The notes under the pieces were generated by a model. It was not told the DNA's origin. It made no database searches and worked only from the letters and a program-made list of their open reading frames with translations. Positions 785 to 11,602 of a stretch of DNA of 35,809 nucleotides are shown piece after piece. Numbering within the stretch: position 1 is the stretch's first letter; each line of letters starts with the position of its first letter. A program made the translations under genes and the position numbers. Origin of the DNA: a virus (Duplodnaviria > Heunggongvirae > Uroviricota > Caudoviricetes); the IMG/VR virus record IMGVR_UViG_2690316210_000007, positions 1 to 35,809 of that record; one strand, written 5' to 3'.

Positions 785-1834
785 ATGCTTAATACTGTAA
801 AAATATCCAGTTGTGAGTTAATCAACGCCGACTGCCTGGAATTTATCCGGTCGTTACCCGAAAATTCTGTTGACCTGATAGTCACGGACCCGCCGTACTT
901 TAAAGTGAAGCCTGAGGGCTGGGATAACCAGTGGAAGGGCGACGATGATTACCTGAAGTGGCTGGACCAGTGTCTGGCGCAGTTCTGGCGGGTGCTGAAA
1001 CCTGCCGGAAGTCTTTACCTGTTCTGTGGTCATCGCCTGGCATCTGATATCGAAATCATGATGCGTGAACGCTTCAGTGTGCTGAACCATATTATCTGGG
1101 CGAAGCCGTCCGGACGCTGGAACGGATGCAACAAGGAAAGCCTGCGGGCGTATTTCCCCGCCACAGAGCGCATTCTGTTCGCGGAACATTATCAGGGGCC
1201 GTATCGTCCGAAAGATGCCGGGTATGCGGCGAAGGGCAGTGCACTGAAACAGCATGTGATGGCCCCGCTGATTTCTTACTTTCGTGATGCGCGCGCGGCC
1301 CTGGGGATAACGGCAAAACAGATTGCAGATGCCACAGGAAAGAAAAACATGGTGTCGCACTGGTTCAGTGCCAGTCAGTGGCAGCTACCGAATGAAAGCG
1401 ATTATCTGAAATTACAGGCGCTGTTTGCCCGGGTGGCAGAAGAGAAGCATCGGCGTGGTGAACTGGAAAAGCTCCACCACCAGCTGGTGGATACGTATAC
1501 CTCACTGAACCGGCAGTATGCGGAGCTGCTGAGTGAATATAAACATCTGCGGCGGTATTTTGGCGTGACGGTGCAGGTGCCGTATACCGATGTGTGGACG
1601 CATAAACCGGTGCAGTTCTATCCCGGGAAACATCCGTGCGAAAAACCGGCAGAAATGCTGCAGCAGATAATCAGCGCAAGTAGCCGTCCTGGTGATCTGG
1701 TTGCGGATTTTTTCATGGGGTCGGGTTCAACGGTAAAAGCGGCGATGGCACTGGGGCGTCGTGCGATTGGTGTTGAGCTGGAGACCGGACGTTTTGAGCA
1801 GACAGTCAGGGAAGTTCAGGATTTAATCGTTTGA
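785..1834 (+). CDS. DNA amino-methyltransferase (N6-adenine or N4-cytosine), encoded in the late operon
   Basis: 349-aa ORF with DPPY motif IV near the N-terminus (DLIVTDPPYF) and an FxGxG AdoMet motif I near the C-terminus (DLVADFFMGSGST), i.e. beta-class motif order. Confidence 0.85.
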   Translation: MLNTVKISSCELINADCLEFIRSLPENSVDLIVTDPPYFKVKPEGWDNQWKGDDDYLKWLDQCLAQFWRVLKPAGSLYLFCGHRLASDIEIMMRERFSVLNHIIWAKPSGRWNGCNKESLRAYFPATERILFAEHYQGPYRPKDAGYAAKGSALKQHVMAPLISYFRDARAALGITAKQIADATGKKNMVSHWFSASQWQLPNESDYLKLQALFARVAEEKHRRGELEKLHHQLVDTYTSLNRQYAELLSEYKHLRRYFGVTVQVPYTDVWTHKPVQFYPGKHPCEKPAEMLQQIISASSRPGDLVADFFMGSGSTVKAAMALGRRAIGVELETGRFEQTVREVQDLIV

Positions 1835-1883: not shown

Positions 1884-1959
1884 GGCCCTTTAGCTCAGTG
1901 GTGAGAGCGAGCGACTCATAATCGCCAGGTCGCTGGTTCAAATCCAGCAAGGGCCACCA
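1884..1959 (+). tRNA. ileZ: tRNA with CAT anticodon (tRNA-Ile2 lysidine type or tRNA-Met), 76 nt with encoded CCA
   Basis: Cloverleaf read by hand: acceptor GGCCCTT/AAGGGCC, D-stem GCTC/GAGC, anticodon loop CTCATAA (CAT), T-arm GCTGG-TTCAAAT-CCAGC, discriminator A plus CCA. Stx-type lambdoid phages carry ileZ-argN-argO here; the ileZ symbol is by analogy only. Confidence 0.85.
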
Positions 1960-2059
1960 TCACAAACCGCCATTAGCTTATCAGGAAGAGCAGACGACAC
2001 GATAACAGGGTTGTTGGTGCGGGGGCGGGTCCCCGATGGCGGTCCATTATCGGTATTCA

Positions 2060-2136
2060 GCGTTGTTAGCTCAGCCGGACAGAGCAATTGCCTTCTAAGC
2101 AATCGGTCACTGGTTCGAATCCAGTACAACGCGCCA
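2060..2136 (+). tRNA. tRNA-Arg (anticodon TCT), 77 nt with encoded CCA
   Basis: Acceptor GCGTTGT/ACAACGC, D-stem GCTC/GAGC, anticodon stem ATTGC/GCAAT with loop CTTCTAA (TCT), T-arm ACTGG-TTCGAAT-CCAGT, discriminator G plus CCA. Confidence 0.85.
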
Positions 2137-2150
2137 CACTTATTTTCCCT

Positions 2151-2177
2151 GGCTCGCTTTTGCGGGCTTTTTTTTAA
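2151..2177 (+). terminator. Intrinsic terminator downstream of the tRNA genes
   Basis: Hairpin gctcgc-tttt-gcgggc followed by a T8 run. Confidence 0.5.
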
Positions 2178-2181
2178 ATGT

Positions 2182-2398
2182 CTCACAATTCAGGCGGTTG
2201 ACTGTTGTCTGGTTTGCGGGGAGTTTGTTAAAAGAAACTGGCATGGTGAATCCCCCTGTGCGGAGGGGCAATCAGCGAGTAGGTATATGGGATAATCGCG
2301 GATTCAGGTGCTGGTACTGAATTCACCGGGAGGCACCCGGCACCATGCAATGGCACATAGCGCCACTCTCCAGCCCCTCTCCGGAGGGGCTTTTCTGT
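2182..2398 (+). repeat. Copy 1 of a ~220-bp hairpin-rich unit; candidate structured ncRNA/sRNA locus
   Basis: Begins CTCACAATTCAGG..TTGAC; contains gcatggtgaatccccctgtgcggaggggc, caccgggaggcacccggcaccatgc and a terminal hairpin cccctctccggagggg followed by CTTTTCT. The same architecture recurs at 2650-2886. Confidence 0.4.
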
Positions 2399-2585
2399 GC
2401 CGGATACATCACAGTTTCTGGAACCTTAGGTACTACAGTATCAGTCAGGGTGCTATATTTTCAGATGTGATGAAAGCCTGTCAGCAGGCAGGGCGTATCG
2501 GAAATGACCCAGTAGAGAAAACGTTGACTCAGATACCGGTGCTGAGTTACCGGGAAACCGGCATCACATGACCGCTATCCTTCCA

Positions 2586-2612
2586 GGCCCATCCGCTCCG
2601 GTGGGCCTTTTT
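2586..2612 (+). terminator. Intrinsic terminator-like hairpin between the two repeat units
   Basis: ggccca-tccgctccgg-tgggcc followed by TTTTT. Confidence 0.45.
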
Positions 2613-2649
2613 ACTGCAGAAAACAGGTTCCCCGTTAAATGCTATGTTG

Positions 2650-2886
2650 CTCACAATTCAGTAAGTTGACAGTTGCCTGTCAGACTGGGCATTTGTTAAA
2701 AAAATTTCGCATGGTGAATCCCCCTGAGCGGAGGGGCGACTGGTGACGGTATAATCTCTGATTATCAAAACGAGAATGACGCGGGTTTAGTGGCACCGGG
2801 CTGAACTCACCGGGAGGCACCCGGCACCATGTGCATGATGATACAGATACGCGGCTTTAGCCCCTCTCCGGAGGGGTTTTCTTGTG
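2650..2886 (+). repeat. Copy 2 of the hairpin-rich unit; candidate structured ncRNA/sRNA locus
   Basis: Begins CTCACAATTCAG..TTGACA; shares the 5' block (gcatggtgaatccccctgagcggaggggc) and 3' block (tcaccgggaggcacccggcaccatg ... cccctctccggagggg + TTTTCTT) with copy 1, with a different central segment that includes TATAAT. Confidence 0.4.
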
Positions 2887-3111
2887 GGCAAAAAAAGCCC
2901 GCGCTGGGAGACGCGGGCGGCAAGGAATAAACAATAAAACGTGAAGTAATATTTCAGCTGGCGAATAATACCCCATAGTAATCACTCTGCGCAACTGCGC
3001 GGTCTTTTTCGAATTGCGGGCTGTCGTCTCTCTTCTGCCATTGTCCTGTAACTTCCGGACTTCAGCCCGCTCCTTATTTTACTCACAATATTATCCCGGC
3101 CGGGAGGATTC

Positions 3112-4968
3112 ATGGCATTTAAACACTATGACGTGGTCAGGGCGGTATCGCCGTCAGACCTTGCGAAACGACTGACACAAAAACTGAAGGAGGGCTGGCA
3201 GCCGTTTGGTAGTCCGGTGGCCATAACCCCTTATACCCTGATGCAGGCGATTGCAGCAGAAGGTGATGTGGTGGTCAGTGGTGCAACTGAGCCGGATTGG
3301 TACTACGTCATCGTACTGGCCGGGCAGTCCAATGCCATGGCTTACGGTGAAGGGCTTCCGCTGCCGGATTCATACGATGCGCCCCATCCGCGCATTAAGC
3401 AACTGGCCCGTCGTAACACAGTGACTCCCGGTGGTGAAGTATGCGTATTTAACGACATCATTCCTGCTGACCATTGTCTGCATGATGTTCAGGATATGAG
3501 TACGATTAACCATCCCCGGGCTGACCTGAGCAAAGGGCAGTACGGCTGTGTCGGACAGGGCTTACATATTGCCAAAAAACTGCTTCCGTATATCCCTAAT
3601 AACGCGGGGATCCTGCTGGTACCATGCTGTCGTGGTGGTTCGGCATTCACCCAGGGCACGGAGGGGACATTCAGCGAGTCCACGGGGGCCAGTCAGGATT
3701 CGGCTCGCTGGGGAGTGGGTAAGCCGTTATATCAGGATCTGCTTTTCCGCACGAAGGCAGCATTGCAGAAAAACCCGAAAAACGTTTTGCTGGCGATATG
3801 CTGGATGCAGGGGGAATTCGATATGACGAATGCCAGTTACGCCCAGCAGCCAGCAGCATTTCTTGCAATGGTACAGCAGTTCCGTGCTGACCTTGCCGGG
3901 CTGGCGGCGCAGTGTCACGGTGGAAGTCCGGCATCAGTCCCCTGGATTTGTGGCGACACGACATACGCGTGGAAACAAGAACACGGTACGCAATATGAAG
4001 TGGTATATGGTGCATATAAAGGTAAAGAATCCCAGCAGATTTATTTTGTTCCCTTTATGACCGATGGTAGCGGAGTTAATACACCGACAAACAACCCGTC
4101 AGAAGATCCTGATATTGCCGGGTCTGGTTATTACGGTTCGGCATCCCGAACGAACAAAAACTGGGTATCATCAAATCGCCCGACGCATTTCAGCTCATGG
4201 GCGCGTCGTGGCATTATTCCCGATCGTATGGCAACTGCTATTCTGAACGTAGCCGGTCGCACCTTAGCCTTCATTAGTGGTAAGGCACCGGAAATCAAAC
4301 CCTCGCCCGGCGGCGACACTCCATCGGGGCCGTCTGATGGTGACACATCCGTTCGTACAGTCTCCCTGCTGCCGACAGCCGGAGAGGCTGCTGCGCAGGG
4401 CTGGACCATCACCGGCGGCAGTGTTGCGCTGGAAGATGGTGTGTTTAAGGTTACCAAGCAGAGCAATAAAACCTGGTCCCTGATGCATCCGGTGGATGAC
4501 GCAGTCTCCCTGCTGACACGGGGTGGCAGACTGAGCTGTAAGTTTCGACTGTCAGGCGCACTGACCAACAACCAGTTCGGTCTGGGAATTTATCTGTATA
4601 CCGATGTAGCGTTACCTGACGTCGTGGCGATGACCGGGACTGGTAACCCGTTCCTGATGTCGTTCTTCACCCAGACCACAGACGGCAAACTGAATCTGAT
4701 GCATCACAGGAAAGCAGGAAACACAAAGTTGGGCGAGTTCGGGAATTACAGTAACGACTGGCAGACGCTGGAGCTGGTGTTCACCGCCGGCAGTGCCACG
4801 GTTACTCCGAAACTGAATGGAGTGGCTGGCCCGGCATTCCAGGTCATAAAAGACAGTCTGACACTGGGGCTGAATGCGCTGACGCTGACGGATATTACCA
4901 AAAATGCAGCGTATGGCGTTGAGATAGAAAGTCTGGTGCTGGAGATAAATGCACCAGCATCATCATAA
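3112..4968 (+). CDS. nanS-p: Prophage sialate O-acetylesterase (nanS-p-like; SGNH/SASA-type esterase with C-terminal extension)
   Basis: 618-aa ORF with RBS ggagga before ATG 3112. Contains the GQSN esterase motif (VIVLAGQSNAMAYGEG). It sits between the tRNA/stx-equivalent region and the lysis cassette, as nanS-p homologues do in Stx and Stx-like prophages. Confidence 0.7.
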   Translation: MAFKHYDVVRAVSPSDLAKRLTQKLKEGWQPFGSPVAITPYTLMQAIAAEGDVVVSGATEPDWYYVIVLAGQSNAMAYGEGLPLPDSYDAPHPRIKQLARRNTVTPGGEVCVFNDIIPADHCLHDVQDMSTINHPRADLSKGQYGCVGQGLHIAKKLLPYIPNNAGILLVPCCRGGSAFTQGTEGTFSESTGASQDSARWGVGKPLYQDLLFRTKAALQKNPKNVLLAICWMQGEFDMTNASYAQQPAAFLAMVQQFRADLAGLAAQCHGGSPASVPWICGDTTYAWKQEHGTQYEVVYGAYKGKESQQIYFVPFMTDGSGVNTPTNNPSEDPDIAGSGYYGSASRTNKNWVSSNRPTHFSSWARRGIIPDRMATAILNVAGRTLAFISGKAPEIKPSPGGDTPSGPSDGDTSVRTVSLLPTAGEAAAQGWTITGGSVALEDGVFKVTKQSNKTWSLMHPVDDAVSLLTRGGRLSCKFRLSGALTNNQFGLGIYLYTDVALPDVVAMTGTGNPFLMSFFTQTTDGKLNLMHHRKAGNTKLGEFGNYSNDWQTLELVFTAGSATVTPKLNGVAGPAFQVIKDSLTLGLNALTLTDITKNAAYGVEIESLVLEINAPASS

Positions 4969-5653: not shown

Positions 5654-5708
5654 CTTTTTGCAGTTGGCTTTCCAGTATCTTTCATTGGTAGCATCCTGAT
5701 AAATATCC

Positions 5709-6242
5709 ATGAGCGCAAAAATCAAATACGGCCTGTCAGCTGCTGTTCTGGCGCTGATTGCTGCAGGCGCGTCTGCTCCTCAAATACTTGACCAGTTTCT
5801 GGATGAAAAAGAGGGTAACCACACTACGGCATACCGCGATGGTTCCGGTATATGGACCATCTGTCGTGGTGCCACAATGGTGGATGGTAAGCCCGTCATA
5901 CCGGGAATGAAGCTGTCGAAGGAAAAATGCGACCAGGTTAACGCTATTGAACGTGATAAGGCGCTGGCATGGGTGGAGCGCAATATTAAAGTACCACTGA
6001 CCGAACCACAGAAAGCGGGTATAGCGTCATTATGTCCCTATAACATTGGCCCCGGTAAGTGTTTCCCGTCGACGTTTTATAAGCGGCTGAATGCCGGTGA
6101 TCGTAAGGGCGCATGCGAGGCGATTCGCTGGTGGATAAAAGATGGTGGGCGCGATTGCCGCATACGTTCAAATAACTGCTATGGACAGGTTATTCGTCGT
6201 GACCAGGAAAGCGCATTAGCCTGTTGGGGGATAGATCAGTGA
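5709..6242 (+). CDS. R: SAR endolysin (T4-lysozyme-type muramidase, phage-21 R-like)
   Basis: N-terminal signal-anchor-release segment ([17 protein letters not shown]) followed by a catalytic E...D...T arrangement ([22 protein letters not shown]). Paired with a pinholin upstream, the canonical pinholin/SAR-endolysin system. Confidence 0.85.
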
Positions 6243-6697
6243 GCAGAGTCGCAGCGATTATTTATACTCTGGTTATCTGCACCATCGTCTGCCTGTCATG
6301 GGCTGTTAATCATTACCGCGATAACGCCATTACCTACAAAGCCCAGCGCGACAAAAATGCCAGAGAACTGAAGCTGGCGAACGTGGCAATTACTGACATG
6401 CAGATGCGTCAGCGTGATGTAGCAGAACTCGACGCCAGATACACAAAGGAGCTTGCTGATGCTAACGCGACTATCGAAAGTCTTCGTGCTGATGTTTCTG
6501 CTGGGCGTAAGCGCCTGCAAGTCGCCGCCACCTGTGCAAAGTCAACGACCGGAGCCAGCGGCATGGGCGATGGAGAAAGCCCAGGACTTACAGCAGATGC
6601 TGAACTCAATTATTACCGTCTCCGAAGTGGAATCGACAAGTTAACCGCTCAGGTCAACTACCTGCAGGAGTACATCAGGACGCAGTGCTTAAAATAA
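6239..6697 (+). CDS. Rz: Rz i-spanin
   Basis: GTG start overlapping the R stop (caGTGAgc). [61 protein letters not shown]... is near-identical to recalled lambda Rz ([61 protein letters not shown]...). Confidence 0.85.
6453..6644 (+). CDS. Rz1: Rz1 o-spanin lipoprotein, embedded in the +1 frame of Rz
   Basis: 63-aa ORF inside Rz with lipobox LLGVSAC and a proline-rich mature region ([16 protein letters not shown]), as in lambda Rz1. Confidence 0.75.
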
Positions 6698-6737
6698 TTT
6701 TAATTTCACTGAAATTTAATACGTGACTTTCAGGAAA

Positions 6738-6764
6738 ATGCCTCGCAGATGCGGGGCATTTTTG
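6738..6764 (+). terminator. Intrinsic terminator downstream of Rz/Rz1
   Basis: 9-bp stem atgcctcgc/gcggggcat (one G-U pair), loop agat, followed by TTTTT. Confidence 0.45.
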
Positions 6765-7113
6765 TACAGGTATTTCACCGCGCACCGCAGCGCACTCAAC
6801 CACGTCGAACCAAACCCTTTGGAATGAGCCTTTGAGTAGTCAGTTAGTGCTGGTGAGCCTTGACGGGCTGATCTCCTATGCAGCAAAGGTTCATCTCAAA
6901 GTAAGACGAACGCTATGACAAACCAAGATTCTATAGACCTATCTGATCTTCGTGGAATGGTCATTTTTCCAGACAAAAGGTAATCACCATAGTCGTATGG
7001 CTATGAATCTTGTTGCTGCAGATAAGCATTTTGTGATTGAAGTGGTCAAATCTCTCAAATGCAGTAAAATGCAGTGCGCTATAATTCAATAACGGAGGGA
7101 GTAAGGAGAAGTC

Positions 7114-7734
7114 ATGAAAGATCAAGATGTTAGGTTCGCGGTGCATCATAAGCTTTTGAAAGAATCGCATTTAGATCCAGACTGCCTTGTGGTCGATGAA
7201 TTTTCCATATCCCTTGGCGCCAGTAGAGCAGACATTGCTGTAATAAATGGTGTTATACACGGGTACGAGCTCAAAAGTGAATATGACTCTTTGGAGCGTT
7301 TGCCTCTTCAAATCAAGCATTATTCTTCTGTAATGGACAAGGTTACTCTTGTCGTAGCTGAGAAACACCTTGAGGGAGCATTAAAGTTAATCCCAGGTTG
7401 GTGGGGCGTTAAAACGGTTTCTGTTGGGCCAAAAGGCGCCATTCTTATAAAGCACATGCGTGGAGAAAAGCTTAATCGAAACCATGACACATTGATGCTC
7501 GCTCAATTGCTTTGGAAAGATGAATGTATCGACGTACTTGAACGATGGGGCTATTCCAAAGGAATCAAAAGCAAGCCCCGATTTGAGTTATGGAATATTA
7601 TTGCGGAAAATATTCCAATAGCGAATCTCAGGCCTGAAGTCAGAACAGCCTTAAAGAAACGCGTAGGCTGGAAAGTTAAGGCTTGGCAGGCTGAGTCTGC
7701 GCCAACCAATAAAGCTGTCTCACGACTAACGTAA
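7114..7734 (+). CDS. Hypothetical protein (206 aa) of the AT-rich cargo island; candidate PD-(D/E)xK-type nuclease
   Basis: RBS aaggag 6 nt before ATG 7114; TATAAT at 7080-7085 upstream. Translation shows an ordered E...hhhhD...hhh(E)hK pattern (LLKESHL..CLVVDEF..ADIAVINGVIHGYELKSE). No similarity to lambda late proteins. Visibly lower GC than the flanking phage backbone. Confidence 0.55.
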   Translation: MKDQDVRFAVHHKLLKESHLDPDCLVVDEFSISLGASRADIAVINGVIHGYELKSEYDSLERLPLQIKHYSSVMDKVTLVVAEKHLEGALKLIPGWWGVKTVSVGPKGAILIKHMRGEKLNRNHDTLMLAQLLWKDECIDVLERWGYSKGIKSKPRFELWNIIAENIPIANLRPEVRTALKKRVGWKVKAWQAESAPTNKAVSRLT

Positions 7735-8743
7735 TATGGTGCGTATGTGCAACTTTACGCCATTCTTTAGAGCCGCCAGATTTGTTAGCGCCTAATGATC
7801 TTTGGTAAATGTAATCATCCCCCCAACTAAATTTGGAGCCAAAGACTTGATACTCTGGCGAACTAACAAGGGTAGTACATAAGTTTTTAGTTTGGCCCCA
7901 TCCATTTCCTTTAACTGCGGTACCTTTTACAAAGATCCATGAGGTATCGTTCGAATATCTCACTGAGACATACTGAGACATGAAGCGTGGGTCTACGCTC
8001 GTAATGGTAGAGCTAGCGGTGGGATAATCACTAAAACTTGGCGTTCTTCCATTGCTAAAATTCTGTACTACGTACATCCAAAGATCGTATTCATGGCGCG
8101 GAATATGATGAACTTGATGTTGCGGTATCCCTGCCTGTGATGCCGGGTATGCGGTTGAAGATAAAATCAAGTTTCTCCACGGAGCTTGGCCTGATAATGT
8201 GTTGACCATGCTTAATGCTTGTTGTTTTAAACTATCAGTTGCGTTTTGAATATCTCCAAAATCAATGATTACATCAATTAAACTAGGATGAATATTTAAG
8301 TGGTTAACCAGACTTGTGAATTGGTGCCATGTCTGGGGGGTGATAGATATAGCGAGCCCATTGATTAAGTTGCGTTGAACAGCATGTATATAGTTTGTTG
8401 AATATGCGGGAGAAACAACAGGGATAATTTCCTTACCATTTACTCTAGCATCTTGGATACACATATCTAGAGGATGATGGCGGCTCGAACCATGTTTATC
8501 TAAATATTTAACATCCAGCAAAACAGGACGATTGGCTTTCCAGGATGCCGCAAGGTTAATACCGAAGTCAGATAAGTAAGAACTCAAATTCTTCTTGTAG
8601 CATTCGTTTTCATAATCCCAGTCTATGTCTGGAATGGTAATGATCGGAGTAAAACCAGAGAGCGTAGTTTGATCTAAAAGCATCAGAGATTCATATTCAG
8701 CAGGCTTCCATTTCAGCTGTGGATAATATTGATGTTGACTCAT
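7676..8743 (-). CDS. Hypothetical protein (355 aa) of the AT-rich cargo island, convergent with the 206-aa ORF
   Basis: Minus-strand ORF with RBS AAGGAG 5 nt before its ATG (8741-8743). Alternating short hydrophobic strands (VLLDVKYL, IIPVVSP, GLAISIT, IDVIIDFGDI, NLILSST) suggest an alpha/beta fold. No recognised catalytic motif and no match to lambda proteins. Its 3' end overlaps the 3' end of the + ORF by 59 bp. Confidence 0.55.
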   Translation of the reverse strand: MSQHQYYPQLKWKPAEYESLMLLDQTTLSGFTPIITIPDIDWDYENECYKKNLSSYLSDFGINLAASWKANRPVLLDVKYLDKHGSSRHHPLDMCIQDARVNGKEIIPVVSPAYSTNYIHAVQRNLINGLAISITPQTWHQFTSLVNHLNIHPSLIDVIIDFGDIQNATDSLKQQALSMVNTLSGQAPWRNLILSSTAYPASQAGIPQHQVHHIPRHEYDLWMYVVQNFSNGRTPSFSDYPTASSTITSVDPRFMSQYVSVRYSNDTSWIFVKGTAVKGNGWGQTKNLCTTLVSSPEYQVFGSKFSWGDDYIYQRSLGANKSGGSKEWRKVAHTHHITLVVRQLYWLAQTQPAKP

Positions 8744-8966
8744 TAAAACTCCTTAAAATCTTTACTTATCCTAAGTATAGTGTTATGGCGTAACGCCAAT
8801 TGTTTTTATACACTTGAAAACATTGGGAAAAGTTGAGCTATATCTAAATTTACAAAATTGGATGTTATAGAAATCGAGGTTTCAACTAGGCATGGAACTG
8901 CAAAATTTTTAATGCCTGCACGCGAAAGTCGTTGGCGGGTCCTTTCCGGTGATCCAGATCGTTACG

Positions 8967-8978
8967 GGGCGGCGACCT
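8967..8978 (+). other. cos: cos site: cosN 12-nt cohesive-end sequence (cosB region extends rightwards to roughly 9100)
   Basis: GGGCGGCGACCT followed by CGCGGTTTTTCACTATTTATGAAAATTTT, matching the recalled lambda left end GGGCGGCGACCTCGCGGGTTTTCGCTATTTATGAAAATTTTCC; Nu1 follows about 180 bp downstream. Confidence 0.85.
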
Positions 8979-9153
8979 CGCGGTTTTTCACTATTTATGA
9001 AAATTTTTCAGGGAAAATCGTGTCGGTACTTCTCGAATATAACTTTTTGTTTTTTTTAATATTGCATTCATAAATGTCCGACATGAAAGTGTCCGAAAAT
9101 GCCTTTTTCTGGCGTTTTCATGTCGGGCCTTGTATTTGATAATGGGTTGTTCT

Positions 9154-9702
9154 ATGAAGGTTAATAAAAAGAGGCTTGCCGAAATTTTTAACGTGGACCC
9201 GCGGACGATTGAACGCTGGCAGTCTCAGGGGCTCCCTTGCGTCTCCAAAGGCAGTAAGGGCATTGAATCTGTATTTGATACTGCCATGGCAATTCAGTGG
9301 TATGCGCAGAGGGAAACTGATATCGAAAACGAAAAGCTCCGCAAAGAACTGGCCGATTTGCGTGCGGCAGCGGAGTCAGATTTACAACCCGGCACCATTG
9401 ACTATGAACGCTACCGGCTCACAAAAGCGCAGGCAGATGCGCAGGAACTGAAAAATGCCCGTGAAGACGGAGTGGTGCTGGAAACTGAACTGTTTACCTT
9501 CATTCTGCAACGTGTGGCACAGGAGATTTCGGGGATACTTGTGCGTGTGCCGTTGACATTACAGCGTAAATATCCGGACATTTCACCATCACACCTTGAT
9601 GTGGTGAAAACTGAAATCGCGAAAGCCTCCAATGTTGCAGCTAAGGCCGGTGAAAACGTGGGCGGGTGGATCGATGATTTCAGACGCACAGAAGGCAGCT
9701 AA
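9154..9702 (+). CDS. nu1: Terminase small subunit Nu1
   Basis: [28 protein letters not shown]... versus recalled lambda Nu1 MEVNKKQLADIFGASIRTIQNWQEQGMP...; conserved ..[33 protein letters not shown].. throughout. The ORF-track start at 9130 is a TTG upstream extension. Confidence 0.9.
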
Positions 9703-11602
9703 TGCAGCCGGTGCGATAGCTACAGGGCTTTTATCTCTCATTATTCCTGTTCCACTGACGACAGTTCAGTGGGCCAATAAACATTATTACCTTCCTAAAG
9801 AGTCGTCTTATACCCCGGGGCGGTGGGAAACACTGCCGTTTCAGGTTGGCATCATGAACTGTATGGGCAACGATTTGATTCGCACTGTTAACCTGATTAA
9901 ATCTGCCCGTGTTGGTTATACAAAGATGTTGCTGGGAGTGGAGGCTTATTTTATTGAGCATAAATCACGCAACAGCCTTCTTTTTCAGCCCACGGACTCA
10001 GCTGCTGAAGATTTTATGAAATCTCATGTTGAGCCAACGATAAGGGATGTTCCTGCATTGCTGGAGCTGGCTCCATGGTTCGGAAGAAAACACCGCGATA
10101 ATACGCTCACCCTGAAGCGTTTTTCCTCCGGTGTGGGTTTCTGGTGTCTGGGGGGAGCGGCAGCAAAAAACTACCGTGAAAAATCCGTGGATGTGGTTTG
10201 TTATGACGAGCTTTCCTCGTTCGAACCGGATGTTGAAAAAGAGGGTTCGCCAACCCTGCTGGGGGATAAACGTATTGAGGGCTCTGTATGGCCAAAATCC
10301 ATTCGCGGCTCGACGCCTAAAATCAAAGGCTCCTGCCAGATCGAAAAAGCCGCTAACGAGTCGGCACATTTCATGCGTTTTTATGTGCCCTGTCCGCACT
10401 GTGGGGAGGAGCAGTATCTGAAATTTGGCGATGATGCCTCGCCTTTCGGTCTTAAGTGGGAGAAGAATAAGCCAGAAAGTGTTTTCTACCTTTGTGAGCA
10501 TCATGGCTGTGTGATCCATCAGTCTGAGCTTGACCAGAGTAACGGGCGGTGGATCTGTGAAAACACGGGCATGTGGACTCGTGACGGTCTGACATTTTTC
10601 AGCGCCGCGGATAATGAAATTCCGCCGCCGCGCTCCATCACATTCCATATCTGGACGGCGTACAGTCCGTTCACCACCTGGGTACAGATTGTCTATGACT
10701 GGCTGGATGCACTGAAAGATCCCAACGGCCTGAAAACCTTTGTGAACACCACGCTGGGCGAGACCTGGGAAGAGGCCGTGGGCGAAAAACTCGATCACCA
10801 GGTGCTGATGGATAAGGTTGTGCGTTACACGGCTGCGGTGCCTTCCCGGGTGGTTTATCTGACGGCGGGCATTGACTCGCAGCGAAACCGTTTTGAGATG
10901 TATGTCTGGGGATGGGCTCCGGGAGAGGAAGCCTTTCTGGTGGATAAAATCATCATTATGGGGCGTCCCGATGAGGAAGAGACGCTGTTACGTGTGGATG
11001 TGGCGATCAACAAAAAATACCGCCATGCAGACGGAACCGAAATGACCATTTCCCGTGTCTGCTGGGACACCGGGGGGATCGATGGCGAAATTGTCTATCA
11101 GAGGTCAAAAAAACACGGTGTTTTCCGGGTGCTGCCGGTAAAAGGTGCATCTGTTTATGGCAAGCCGGTGATCACCATGCCAAAAACCCGCAATCAGCGG
11201 GGCGTGTATCTGTGCGAAGTGGGGACGGACACCGCAAAAGAAATTCTCTATGCCCGTATGAAAGCCGATCCCACGCCTGCGGATGAAGCCACGTCGTATG
11301 CCATCCGTTTTCCTGATGATCCGGAGATTTTTTCGCAGACAGAGGCGCAGCAACTGGTGGCGGAAGAGCTTGTGGAGAAGTGGGAAAAAGGAAAGATGCG
11401 TCTGCTGTGGGATAACAAAAAGCGGCGTAACGAAGCGCTGGACTGCCTGGTGTATGCCTACGCGGCATTACGTGTGTCCGTGCAACGCTGGCAGCTTGAT
11501 CTGGCTGTACTGGCAAAATCCCGGGAAGAAGAGACGACCCGGCCAACCCTTAAAGAACTGGCAGCGAAGCTGTCCGGAGGAGTGAATGGTTACAGTCGCT
11601 GA
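9674..11602 (+). CDS. A: Terminase large subunit gpA
   Basis: Strong similarity along the whole length to recalled lambda gpA (..[24 protein letters not shown].., ..[14 protein letters not shown].., ..[16 protein letters not shown].., ..[10 protein letters not shown]..). ATG 9674 overlaps the end of nu1; the ORF-track start at 9632 is an alternative. Confidence 0.9.

What the first reader, a model, noticed from the sequence alone, without database searches (positions are those of the whole stretch)
7050..8860. AT-rich convergent two-gene cargo island between Rz/Rz1 and cos: candidate prophage defence or abortive-infection module
Two ORFs (206 aa on +, 355 aa on -) sit between the last lysis gene and cos, at the extreme right end of the phage genome, where lambdoid phages carry lysogen-expressed morons such as bor. 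By eye the segment is markedly more AT-rich than the backbone. Each ORF has its own strong RBS and promoter-like elements, so they are not obviously Q-dependent late genes. Neither resembles any lambda late or structural protein I can recall. The pairing of a ~350-aa and a ~200-aa protein is vaguely reminiscent of paired families annotated as putative defence proteins in other genomes (names like sce7725/sce7726 come to mind), but I cannot verify that from sequence alone.
Basis: partly seen in the sequence, partly recalled or inferred. Interest (0 to 1): 0.85.

Follow-up and report, generated by a model that had tools for sequence, protein, structure and literature searches.

The report
Gop-less beta/cII prophage defence-like gene pair
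An AT-rich two-gene cassette at the far right end of this lambdoid prophage pairs a TIM-barrel "beta" protein with a P4 cII-like nuclease; these are the two parts shared by two proven anti-phage systems, but this two-gene form has never itself been tested.

Summary
A 206-aa ORF (7114-7734, +) and a 355-aa ORF (7676-8743, -) converge with a 59-nt overlap, between Rz/Rz1 and phage-21-type cos. They lie in a 2.0-kb island (6920-8931) with 40.5% GC against 54.9% elsewhere.

The 206-aa protein belongs to the sce7726 / Phage_P4_cII family. It has a PD-(D/E)xK nuclease fold, and E29-D40-E52-K54 is invariant in 80 homologues. The 355-aa protein is a Beta_protein (PF14350) TIM barrel that also matches PADLOC PD-Lambda-2_C.

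These are two of the three genes of satellite P4's gop-beta-cII defence system, in the same convergent layout next to cos. There is no gop here.

With the cII-like protein as query, 78 of 80 species-level loci (at least 8 bacterial phyla, one archaeon, actinophages) carry the same convergent pair. None has gop, and 29 have a PD-lambda-2B-like peptidase upstream of beta. The bare pair therefore looks like the common core.

Natural IS or frameshift knock-outs of beta leave the nuclease gene intact, which argues against a simple toxin-antitoxin reading.

Verdict: a credible but untested defence candidate, a new variant of a known kind. The mechanism is inferred.

The parts
6920..8931 (.). AT-rich cargo island (2,012 bp) between a truncated P22-type rha remnant and cosQ/cosN
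   Evidence: GC is 0.405 against 0.549 for the rest of the window, the lowest of 676 sliding windows. Homology to P22/BTP1 Rz-rha ends at 6919. Homology to phage-21-type cos regions starts at 8932-8935. The island is >=99% identical in 127 of 5426 complete E. coli genomes.
7029..7085 (+). Conserved promoter-like region of the cII-like gene: TGGTCA (7043-7048)-N16-TAAAAT (7065-7070), tandem AAATGCAGT x2 (7057-7065, 7067-7075), perfect TATAAT (7080-7085)
   Evidence: The block is invariant or nearly so across five copies from E. coli, Klebsiella, Edwardsiella and Pectobacterium with unrelated flanks. The consensus scan finds the site at 7043-7070. The exact tandem copies are at 7058 and 7068.
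7103..7108 (+). AAGGAG ribosome-binding site of the cII-like gene
   Evidence: Read directly from the sequence; conserved as a purine-rich block.
7114..7734 (+). cII-like / sce7726-family gene (206 aa): PD-(D/E)xK nuclease fold plus a C-terminal helical domain
7676..7734 (.). 59-nt 3'-3' overlap of the two convergent genes, with no terminator-like structure
   Evidence: Coordinates. Folding z-scores are about 0 on both strands. Convergent 3' ends that overlap or abut occur in 78/80 genome loci and 38/38 viral loci.
7676..8743 (-). beta-family gene (355 aa): TIM barrel with a C-terminal helical extension
8749..8754 (-). AAGGAG ribosome-binding site of the beta gene
   Evidence: Read from the sequence; invariant AAGGA in five taxa.
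8805..8847 (-). Conserved promoter-like block upstream of beta: TTAGATnTAGCTCAAyTTTT (8847-8828) and TATAAA (8810-8805)
   Evidence: Conserved across five copies with unrelated flanks. It was not called by the consensus scan.
6734..6763 (+). Context: strong terminator-like hairpin plus U-run after Rz, upstream of the island
   Evidence: 13-bp stem, -20.2 kcal/mol, z -5.75.
8967..8978 (+). Context: cosN cohesive-end sequence GGGCGGCGACCT (phage-21 type)
   Evidence: Sequence. 95-97% identity to the phage 21 cos / terminase small subunit region.

Best explanation
The island is a self-contained mobile two-gene module. It is the gop-less core of the beta/cII family, to which P4 gop-beta-cII and PD-lambda-2 belong.

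I propose that it is expressed from its own promoters in the lysogen and protects the lysogen against other phages, as follows.

1. The fast-evolving TIM-barrel beta protein acts as the sensor or switch.
2. The highly conserved cII-like PD-(D/E)xK protein acts as the nuclease effector, and is harmless until beta licenses it.
3. A product of an infecting phage perturbs beta.
4. The nuclease then cuts DNA, and the infection is blocked or aborted.
5. The convergent, overlapping transcription probably sets the ratio of the two products by antisense interference. Q-dependent late read-through would favour the nuclease strand.

Shown here: family memberships, folds, the conserved catalytic motif, the conserved pairing and geometry, conserved upstream blocks, and tolerance of beta loss.

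Inferred: expression in the lysogen, sensing by beta, nuclease activity, and the defence phenotype itself.
For: Homology.
- The cII-like protein matches NF033832, PADLOC 'cll' and P4 cII.
- Beta matches PF14350, PADLOC PD-Lambda-2_C and 'beta', and P4 beta.
- P4 has the same convergent beta/cII layout next to cos.

Literature on homologous systems.
- gop-beta-cII protects against lambda and P1 (PMC9122126).
- It is triggered to kill cells by a phage accessory protein, orf184 (bioRxiv 10.1101/2023.04.06.535777).
- PD-lambda-2C, a beta homologue, is required for defence but not for neutralising the toxin (PMC9519451).

Structure.
- The cII-like protein has a PD-(D/E)xK fold, and E29-D40-E52-K54 is invariant in 80/80 sequences.
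- Rousset's HHpred also gives MmcB-like for P4 cII.
- Beta is a TIM barrel with conserved acidic residues at strand ends.

The pair as a unit.
- 78/80 species-level loci and 38/38 viral loci carry it convergent.
- Gordonia phage Powerball gp32/gp33 is another example.
- None of the 80 loci has gop, and 29/78 have a PD-lambda-2B-like gene.

Genomic contexts are those typical of defence genes and mobile elements.
- Next to a type I restriction-modification system in Edwardsiella.
- Next to integrases and prophages.
- In the same lysis-terminase slot and the same orientation in unrelated Klebsiella prophages.

Evolutionary rates fit a sensor and an effector: median identity to the window protein is 28% for beta and 43% for the cII-like protein.

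Own regulatory DNA travels with the module.

At least six independent natural beta knock-outs leave the nuclease gene intact, so the nuclease is not lethal without beta.
Against: - No experiment exists on any two-gene beta/cII pair.
- In P4 the known toxic component is Gop, a 2-TM protein, which is absent here.
- The validated PD-lambda-2 clone extends only about 396 bp beyond the beta stop codon. It could not hold a whole cII-like gene, so cII-like proteins are at least not needed for that system's defence.
- The biochemical activity of beta is unknown. Its structural matches are generic TIM barrels, with only faint GDPD/PLD-like or TGT-like hints.
- Recurrent beta knock-outs could simply mean the cassette is decaying, or that AT-rich DNA attracts IS elements.
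- The consensus promoter scan is not enriched over shuffles.
- Expression in the lysogen was not measured.
Confidence: 0.5

Rival explanations
1. A classical toxin-antitoxin (addiction) pair that stabilises the prophage. One protein poisons the cell and the other neutralises it, with no role in phage defence.
For: P4 gop/beta behaves like a toxin-antitoxin pair, and PD-lambda-2 is TA-like. The two genes are tightly coupled, overlapping and travel together.
Against: At least six natural beta knock-outs coexist with an intact cII-like gene and an identical promoter region, so beta is not an essential antitoxin for it. The text of PMC9519451 reports toxicity only for PD-lambda-2B, not for the beta homologue C. 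The TA-like partners of the known systems (gop; PD-lambda-2A/B) are absent here.
Confidence: 0.12
2. The cII-like protein is mainly a regulator or a lysogeny/excision control factor, as the P4 name suggests, and beta is its enzymatic partner. On this reading the module serves the element's own life cycle rather than immunity.
Against: The catalytic E-D-ExK tetrad is invariant across phyla, which is not needed for a DNA-binding regulator. In this window the pair lies at the late-gene end, far from any integrase. The pair also occurs outside prophages, for example beside a type I restriction-modification system. Homologous systems give anti-phage phenotypes.
Confidence: 0.12
3. A DNA-repair or damage-tolerance accessory, or a selfish homing-type nuclease cassette that spreads between phage genomes with beta as a passenger.
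For: The closest structure is an MmcB-like protein, 3dnx, and one source names a homologue 'DNA repair protein MmcB-like'. The cassette has sharp borders and sits in the equivalent slot of unrelated phage backbones without a recombinase of its own.
Against: Strict co-occurrence with beta across phyla argues against beta being a passenger. The nuclease is far more conserved than is usual for homing enzymes. The published phenotypes of homologous systems are anti-phage.
Confidence: 0.08
4. A decaying, non-functional remnant of a three- or four-gene system that has lost gop or the PD-lambda-2 A/B genes.
For: The effectors known from experiments are missing. Beta is repeatedly disrupted in E. coli.
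Against: The bare pair is the commonest form: 49/78 loci have neither a gop homologue nor a PD-lambda-2B-like gene, and none of the 80 has gop. Both proteins keep full length and their invariant residues across phyla. The upstream regulatory blocks are conserved.
Confidence: 0.13

Closest known systems
gop-beta-cII of satellite phage P4 (DefenseFinder Rst_gop_beta_cll; Ghisotti 1990, Rousset 2022)
   Same: Both beta (PF14350, 355 aa in each) and cII (PF26915 / NF033832) are present. They are convergent with abutting 3' ends. The beta 5' end faces cos, and the module is non-essential cargo next to cos.
   Different: There is no gop. Only about 190 bp of non-coding DNA lies upstream of beta, and no homologue occurs anywhere in the window. 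Identity is only 21% (beta) and 27% (cII). The cII-like protein is 206 aa here against 264 aa in P4. The host element is a lambdoid prophage, not a P4-like satellite. Here the genes overlap by 59 nt; in P4 a 27-bp gap carries an annotated terminator.
PD-lambda-2 (Vassallo 2022, E. coli ECOR42)
   Same: The 355-aa protein scores best against the PADLOC PD-Lambda-2_C models (6e-32). In 29 loci from other species, PD-lambda-2B-like operons end in beta and face a convergent cII-like gene.
   Different: The HigB-like A gene and the Xre-M78 peptidase B gene are absent here. The published clone is too short to include a complete cII-like gene.
Bare beta / cII-like pairs already annotated elsewhere (Escherichia phage Rac-SA53 'beta' and 'CII phage-like protein'; Gordonia phage Powerball gp33/gp32; PGAP 'beta family protein' + 'sce7726 family protein')
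   Same: Same two-gene convergent overlapping architecture without gop, in temperate phages.
   Different: They sit in different positions in the phage genome: between the hok/mok genes and an IS1 element in Rac-SA53, and near the integrase and HicAB in Powerball. Identity is about 30% or less. None has been tested for function.
MmcB-like / restriction-endonuclease-like PD-(D/E)xK nucleases (e.g. PDB 3dnx, NucS, Can2 nuclease domain)
   Same: Same core fold, and an E...D...ExK motif.
   Different: No detectable sequence similarity to any solved structure. The protein has an extra C-terminal helical domain and an obligate genomic partner, beta.
Lambda bor-type morons (lysogen-expressed cargo between Rz and cos)
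   Same: Same slot, low GC, its own regulatory DNA, and one gene antisense to late transcription.
   Different: The products are cytoplasmic enzymes, not an outer-membrane lipoprotein.

Membership tests
P4 gop-beta-cII defence system | Beta protein (Pfam PF14350 Beta_protein) | tested here: met
   E 7.2e-56, full-length match 6-342. BLASTP to P4 beta gives E 3e-7 at 21% identity.
P4 gop-beta-cII defence system | cII protein (PF26915 Phage_P4_cII / NF033832 sce7726) | tested here: met
   NF033832 at 184 bits against a cut-off of 70. PADLOC 'cll' at 3.8e-31. BLASTP to P4 cII gives E 3e-19.
P4 gop-beta-cII defence system | gop: a small 2-TM protein encoded directly upstream of beta in the same operon | tested here: not met
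   No ORF of 20 aa or more lies on the beta strand between 8744 and cos. tblastn of P4 gop against the whole window gives only chance hits with E>=2.8. No hydrophobic small ORF occurs in the island arms.
P4 gop-beta-cII defence system | Convergent beta/cII arrangement | tested here: met
   The same geometry is seen in 78/80 and 38/38 related loci.
P4 gop-beta-cII defence system | Protection against phages (lambda, P1) or cell death on a phage trigger | not testable with these tools
   Needs cloning and phage challenge.
PD-lambda-2 | Component C (beta-like) | tested here: met
   PADLOC PDLC03984 at 6e-32 and PDLC03983 at 2.2e-25.
PD-lambda-2 | Components A (HigB-like) and B (Xre HTH + M78 peptidase) upstream of C | tested here: not met
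   No ORF lies upstream of beta. tblastn with a PD-lambda-2B-like protein and a DUF6932 protein against the window gives only chance hits.
NCBIfam sce7725/sce7726 pair | sce7726 family protein (NF033832) | tested here: met
NCBIfam sce7725/sce7726 pair | Partner is an sce7725 family protein | tested here: not met
   No NCBIfam model matches the 355-aa protein at E<=0.1 apart from a chance ndhI hit. None matches six other beta proteins, including myxobacterial ones, or the neighbours of the Nannocystis pair. What sce7725 is was not established.
PD-(D/E)xK nuclease superfamily | Restriction-endonuclease-like alpha/beta core fold | tested here: met
PD-(D/E)xK nuclease superfamily | Catalytic acidic residues plus an ExK motif | tested here: met
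   E29, D40, E52 and K54 are invariant in 80/80 homologues.
PD-(D/E)xK nuclease superfamily | Metal-dependent nuclease activity | not testable with these tools
   Needs biochemistry.
TIM-barrel enzymes | (beta/alpha)8 barrel fold | tested here: met
TIM-barrel enzymes | Assignment to a specific catalytic family (e.g. GDPD/PLC-like phosphodiesterase, TGT/DpdA) | tested here: inconclusive
   Only generic matches at 5-13% identity. A faint GDPD hit in BFVD has TM 0.38. No sequence match to any PDB chain was found even with a profile.
Type II toxin-antitoxin pair | Loss of the antitoxin is not tolerated while the toxin gene is intact | tested here: not met
   Beta is disrupted by IS1, IS5, an IS3-family element, IS1 again, a frameshift and an IS66 cluster in six E. 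coli genomes. The sce7726 gene is intact in all six. The reverse case (cII-like gene lost, beta intact) was not seen in the roughly 80 records inspected.
Lambdoid moron (bor slot) | Variable cargo between Rz and cos, with deviant GC and its own expression signals | tested here: met
   Different cargo occupies the same slot in related prophages. GC is given. Upstream blocks are conserved. Expression in the lysogen was not tested.

The most novel reading that the evidence does not exclude
The convergent, 3'-overlapping beta/cII-like pair is an ancient, autonomous two-gene immune core found across bacteria, archaea and temperate phages. On this reading gop (P4) and the Xre-peptidase module (PD-lambda-2) are lineage-specific add-ons bolted onto beta. 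The TIM-barrel beta protein would then be a previously unrecognised kind of sensor or enzyme that controls a PD-(D/E)xK nuclease. Present defence-finding rules would miss most of the family.
Probability: 0.35. Interest if true: 0.65.

Novelty: new variant of a known kind. Interest (0 to 1): 0.45.

Why it matters
Two validated E. coli defence systems, P4 gop-beta-cII and PD-lambda-2, share a beta protein whose role is unknown. This island shows that beta's universal partner is the cII-like nuclease, not gop or the peptidase toxin.

The two-gene form is the common one, and it spans many phyla and phage types. If the bare pair defends on its own, three things follow:

- it would define the minimal unit of the family;
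- it would reassign gop and PD-lambda-2A/B as accessories;
- it would give a compact, tractable model (about 1.9 kb, native promoters, present in E. coli 55989 and about 2% of complete E. coli genomes) for how a TIM-barrel protein controls a nuclease.

It would also mean that current annotation rules under-count this family. A survey found Rst_gop_beta_cll only in Proteobacteria, while the pair occurs in at least 8 bacterial phyla.

Tried and rejected
- Sequence searches of both proteins and of their family profiles against all PDB chains found nothing.
- NCBIfam has no model for the beta protein, so the sce7725 recollection could not be confirmed.
- A second word-indexed homologue search with a broad beta alignment added only six proteins and no domain fusions. 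The exhaustive representative search showed single-domain proteins only among the best 150.
- I looked for gop, PD-lambda-2B-like and DUF6932 genes in the window and found none.
- I looked for the AAATGCAGT repeat upstream of beta and found none. Genome-wide counts of the motif are at chance level.
- No terminator-like structure lies in the gene overlap.
- Megablast found no deposited phage genome carrying the island. By protein, only Rac-SA53 and a few actinophages carry distant copies.
- Ghisotti et al. 1990 (PMC249035) is not held, so statements about P4 cII genetics rest on secondary citations and on memory.
- The simple toxin (nuclease) / antitoxin (beta) model is rejected because of the natural beta knock-outs.
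- A cos- or packaging-related role is rejected because homologous pairs occur far from any cos site.
Full report
**The observation**

The window holds two convergent ORFs, 7114-7734 (+, 206 aa; "A" below) and 7676-8743 (-, 355 aa; "beta" below). Their 3' ends overlap by 59 nt. They lie after Rz (6224-6697, with a lipobox-bearing Rz1 embedded at 6453-6644). They lie before a phage-21-type cos, whose cosN sequence GGGCGGCGACCT is at 8967-8978, and before Nu1, which starts at about 9154.

Homology to P22/BTP1 continues from Rz through the first 72 nt of rha and stops at 6919. Homology to phage-21-type cos regions resumes at 8932-8935. The cargo island is therefore 6920-8931.

Its GC content is 0.405 against 0.549 for the rest of the window. 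That is the lowest of 676 sliding 2-kb windows. GC3 is 0.37-0.41, against 0.49-0.56 in the neighbouring genes.

Related prophages with the same flanks carry other cargo in this slot: ylcI, DUF6979, iss/bor, rha/PerC.

**What the proteins are**

A is a member of NCBIfam NF033832 (sce7726 family, 184 bits against a cut-off of 70). It also matches PADLOC 'cll' (3.8e-31) and phrog_984. Precomputed annotation of its homologues gives PF26915, which another tool names Phage_P4_cII.

Beta is a full-length Pfam PF14350 Beta_protein (7e-56). It matches PADLOC PD-Lambda-2_C (6e-32) and 'beta' (7e-10), and phrog_9159.

Satellite phage P4 carries gop (133 aa), beta (355 aa) and cII (264 aa) next to its cos, with beta and cII convergent. 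The window proteins align with P4 beta (21% identity, E 3e-7) and with P4 cII (27% identity, E 3e-19).

**What is known about those families**

- P4 gop-beta-cII protects E. coli against lambda and P1. Gop is toxic without beta (Rousset et al. 2022, PMC9122126).
- The same system kills cells when a phage accessory protein, orf184, is expressed (Silas et al., bioRxiv 10.1101/2023.04.06.535777).
- PD-lambda-2 has a HigB-like A, a toxic Xre-peptidase B and a P4-beta-like C. [quoted passage not shown] 2022, PMC9519451).
- I found no paper on the mechanism of beta or cII, and none on a two-gene form.

**What is missing here**

- No ORF of 20 aa or more lies on the beta strand in the DNA between beta and cos.
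- P4 gop, a PD-lambda-2B-like protein and a DUF6932 protein give only chance-level tblastn hits anywhere in the window.
- The island arms hold no small hydrophobic ORF.

The island is a bare beta/cII-like pair.

**Structures**

AlphaFold2 models are confident: pLDDT 93 for beta and 90 for A.

Across 74 beta proteins (median 28% identity to the window), these residues are conserved in at least 90% of sequences: Y6, E16, P33, D77, P108, D157, D161, R216, D239, Y240, Y263, W328 and H336. D77, D161 and D239 sit at the C-terminal ends of barrel strands. That is the usual catalytic or ligand-binding face of a TIM barrel.

Neither family has a solved relative detectable by sequence.

**The pair is the conserved unit**

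- All 38 IMG/VR loci found with beta carry a convergent cII-like gene.
- With the cII-like alignment as query against one genome per species, 78 of 80 loci carry beta convergent with it. The 3' ends usually overlap by 38-56 nt, with a range from a 110-nt overlap to a 39-nt gap. One of the two exceptions ends at a contig edge.
- The hosts span Proteobacteria, Myxococcota, Firmicutes, Actinobacteria, Chloroflexi, Desulfobacterota, Elusimicrobia, three candidate-phyla-radiation lineages and the archaeon Methanosuratincola.
- None of the 80 loci has a gop homologue.
- 29 of 78 have a PD-lambda-2B-like Xre-M78 peptidase directly upstream of beta on the same strand, often preceded by a DUF6932 gene. 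PADLOC scores for PD-Lambda-2_B are 1e-84 to 7e-140.
- 49 of 78 have neither.
- The beta family comprises 3,768 clusters at 50% identity with E<=1e-3. All of the best 150 are single-domain proteins.

Further bare pairs occur in:

- Escherichia phage Rac-SA53, where they are annotated 'beta' and 'CII phage-like protein';
- Gordonia phage Powerball, as gp33/gp32, with an 89-nt overlap, near the integrase and HicAB;
- a Vibrio prophage region next to an integrase;
- Edwardsiella, next to a type I restriction-modification system.

In Klebsiella prophages with unrelated lysis and terminase genes (no tblastn match to the window's proteins), a 77%-identical pair again sits between the lysis cassette and the terminase. 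There too the cII-like gene is co-oriented with the late genes and beta is antisense.

**Regulatory DNA travels with the module**

I aligned the upstream regions of copies from E. coli, Klebsiella, Edwardsiella and Pectobacterium, whose flanks are otherwise unrelated.

Conserved upstream of A:

- TGGyCA-N16-TAAAAT (7043-7070);
- a tandem AAATGCAGT repeat with a 10-bp period (7057-7075);
- a perfect TATAAT (7080-7085).

Conserved upstream of beta:

- TTAGATnTAGCTCAAyTTTT (8847-8828);
- TATAAA (8810-8805);
- AAGGAG.

The conserved module therefore spans about 7029-8890.

The consensus scan alone is not enriched over shuffles. A strong terminator-like hairpin (6734-6763, z -5.75) follows Rz. No terminator-like structure lies in the gene overlap. 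Each transcript must therefore run into the other gene. Q-modified late transcription would read A in sense and beta in antisense. These last two points are inferences.

**Population data**

The island is at least 99% identical in 127 of 5,426 complete E. coli genomes, including E. coli 55989. In 98 of them at least 80% of the 4.5-kb stretch 5700-10200, which includes both flanks, is also present.

Among the roughly 80 records I inspected, beta is disrupted in six strains:

| Strain | Disruption of beta |
|---|---|
| NMBU-W12E19 | IS1 |
| 100416 | IS5 |
| 2013C-3181 | IS3-family element |
| 1532WA | IS1, at a different site |
| PRO_A-1534 | frameshift |
| RM10410 | IS66 cluster |

In a seventh strain, CUVET17-972, IS2 sits just upstream of beta. 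In every case the cII-like gene is annotated intact.

If hits fell uniformly over the island, the chance that all seven would land in beta or its upstream arm is about 0.04. This is a crude estimate. It shows that the nuclease-like protein is tolerated without beta, which argues against beta being its essential antitoxin.

**Most likely mechanism (inferred)**

The pair is a lysogen-expressed immune module. Beta evolves faster and is needed for defence in PD-lambda-2, and it restrains Gop in P4. I take it to be the sensor or switch. The slowly evolving cII-like nuclease would be the effector, inert until licensed. A phage product would trigger it, leading to DNA cleavage and a blocked or aborted infection. 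Convergent overlapping transcription would tune the ratio of the two products.

Caveats:

- The proven toxic parts of the two validated relatives are absent here.
- The PD-lambda-2 clone (228989-232396, with genes at 229385-232009) is too short to include a whole cII-like gene. The nuclease is therefore not needed for defence in that system.
- Beta's activity is unknown.
- No expression data exist.

I put about 0.5 on 'functional anti-phage module' and less on the detailed steps. The rivals are an addiction toxin-antitoxin pair, a lysogeny/excision regulator, a repair or homing cassette, and a decaying remnant. They are listed separately with their evidence.

**Comparison and novelty**

The island is not a full member of gop-beta-cII, because gop was tested for and is absent. 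It is not a full member of PD-lambda-2, because A and B are absent. It shares their two-protein (or, for PD-lambda-2, one-protein) core.

RefSeq (PGAP) already labels the genes 'beta family protein' and 'sce7726 family protein'. What appears not to be in the literature I could search is threefold:

- the convergent beta/cII-like pair is the universal core;
- gop is a rare add-on;
- PD-lambda-2-type operons naturally face a cII-like gene.

A DefenseFinder-based survey reports Rst_gop_beta_cll only in Proteobacteria and at very low frequency. That fits a three-gene detection rule. The rule itself I recall from memory and did not verify.

Verdict: a real and correctly suspected defence-like cargo island, and a new variant of a known kind. 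It is of moderate interest and is readily testable.

Noticed in passing
L082, L094, L106 and 26 other genome loci (e.g. L106:4950-8590): PD-lambda-2-type operons (DUF6932 or none, then an Xre-HTH + M78 peptidase matching PADLOC PD-Lambda-2_B at 1e-84 to 7e-140, then beta) are always faced by a convergent cII-like nuclease gene. The published three-gene PD-lambda-2 clone is too short to contain such a gene.
   Followed up: partly
window 7676-8743 in other E. coli genomes (L010, L011, L137, L138, L139, L140; L012 for the upstream IS2): The beta gene has been knocked out repeatedly and independently (IS1 twice, IS5, an IS3-family element, an IS66 cluster, one frameshift). The adjacent cII-like gene stays intact in each case, and no disruption of it was seen.
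   Followed up: yes
window 7057-7075: An exact tandem repeat AAATGCAGT x2 with a 10-bp period overlaps the -35 position of the cII-like gene's promoter. It is conserved in Klebsiella, Edwardsiella and Pectobacterium copies and may be an operator. No copy lies upstream of beta.
   Followed up: partly
window 6600-6919: The stretch from the 3' end of Rz through the terminator-like hairpin at 6734-6763 to the first 72 nt of an rha gene (start 6847) is 89% identical to Salmonella P22/BTP1-type phages. The cos and terminase side is phage-21-like. The island therefore sits at a mosaic junction, inside a truncated rha.
   Followed up: partly
window 785-1834: There is an intact 349-aa N6/N4 DNA methyltransferase ORF (PF01555). 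In E. coli 55989 the equivalent region downstream of Q instead holds a Ser/Thr kinase, a PP2C phosphatase and only a methyltransferase fragment (L001). This is a second variable cargo slot.
   Followed up: no
window 1884-2136: Two phage-borne tRNA genes are present: tRNA with anticodon CAT (1884-1959) and tRNA-Arg TCT (2060-2136). RefSeq annotates three tRNAs (Ile, Arg, Arg) at the same place in E. coli 55989.
   Followed up: no
window 2137-4968: A 618-aa DUF1737 + SASA esterase + DUF6645 protein (NanS-p-like, 3112-4968) precedes the holin. The roughly 1 kb between the tRNAs and this gene has no ORF of 150 aa or more. From memory, this is the position where Stx phages carry stx.
   Followed up: no
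L131-L134 (Klebsiella prophages): A 77%-identical copy of the pair occupies the same lysis-terminase slot, in the same orientation relative to late genes, in a prophage whose lysis and terminase proteins show no similarity to those of the window.
   Followed up: yes
window 7690-7734 (residues 192-206 of the 206-aa protein): The E. coli variant of the cII-like protein has a disordered C-terminal tail of about 16 residues (pLDDT below 50) that most homologues (about 190 aa) lack. The tail lengthens the gene overlap from 11 nt in the 77%-identical relatives to 59 nt.
   Followed up: partly
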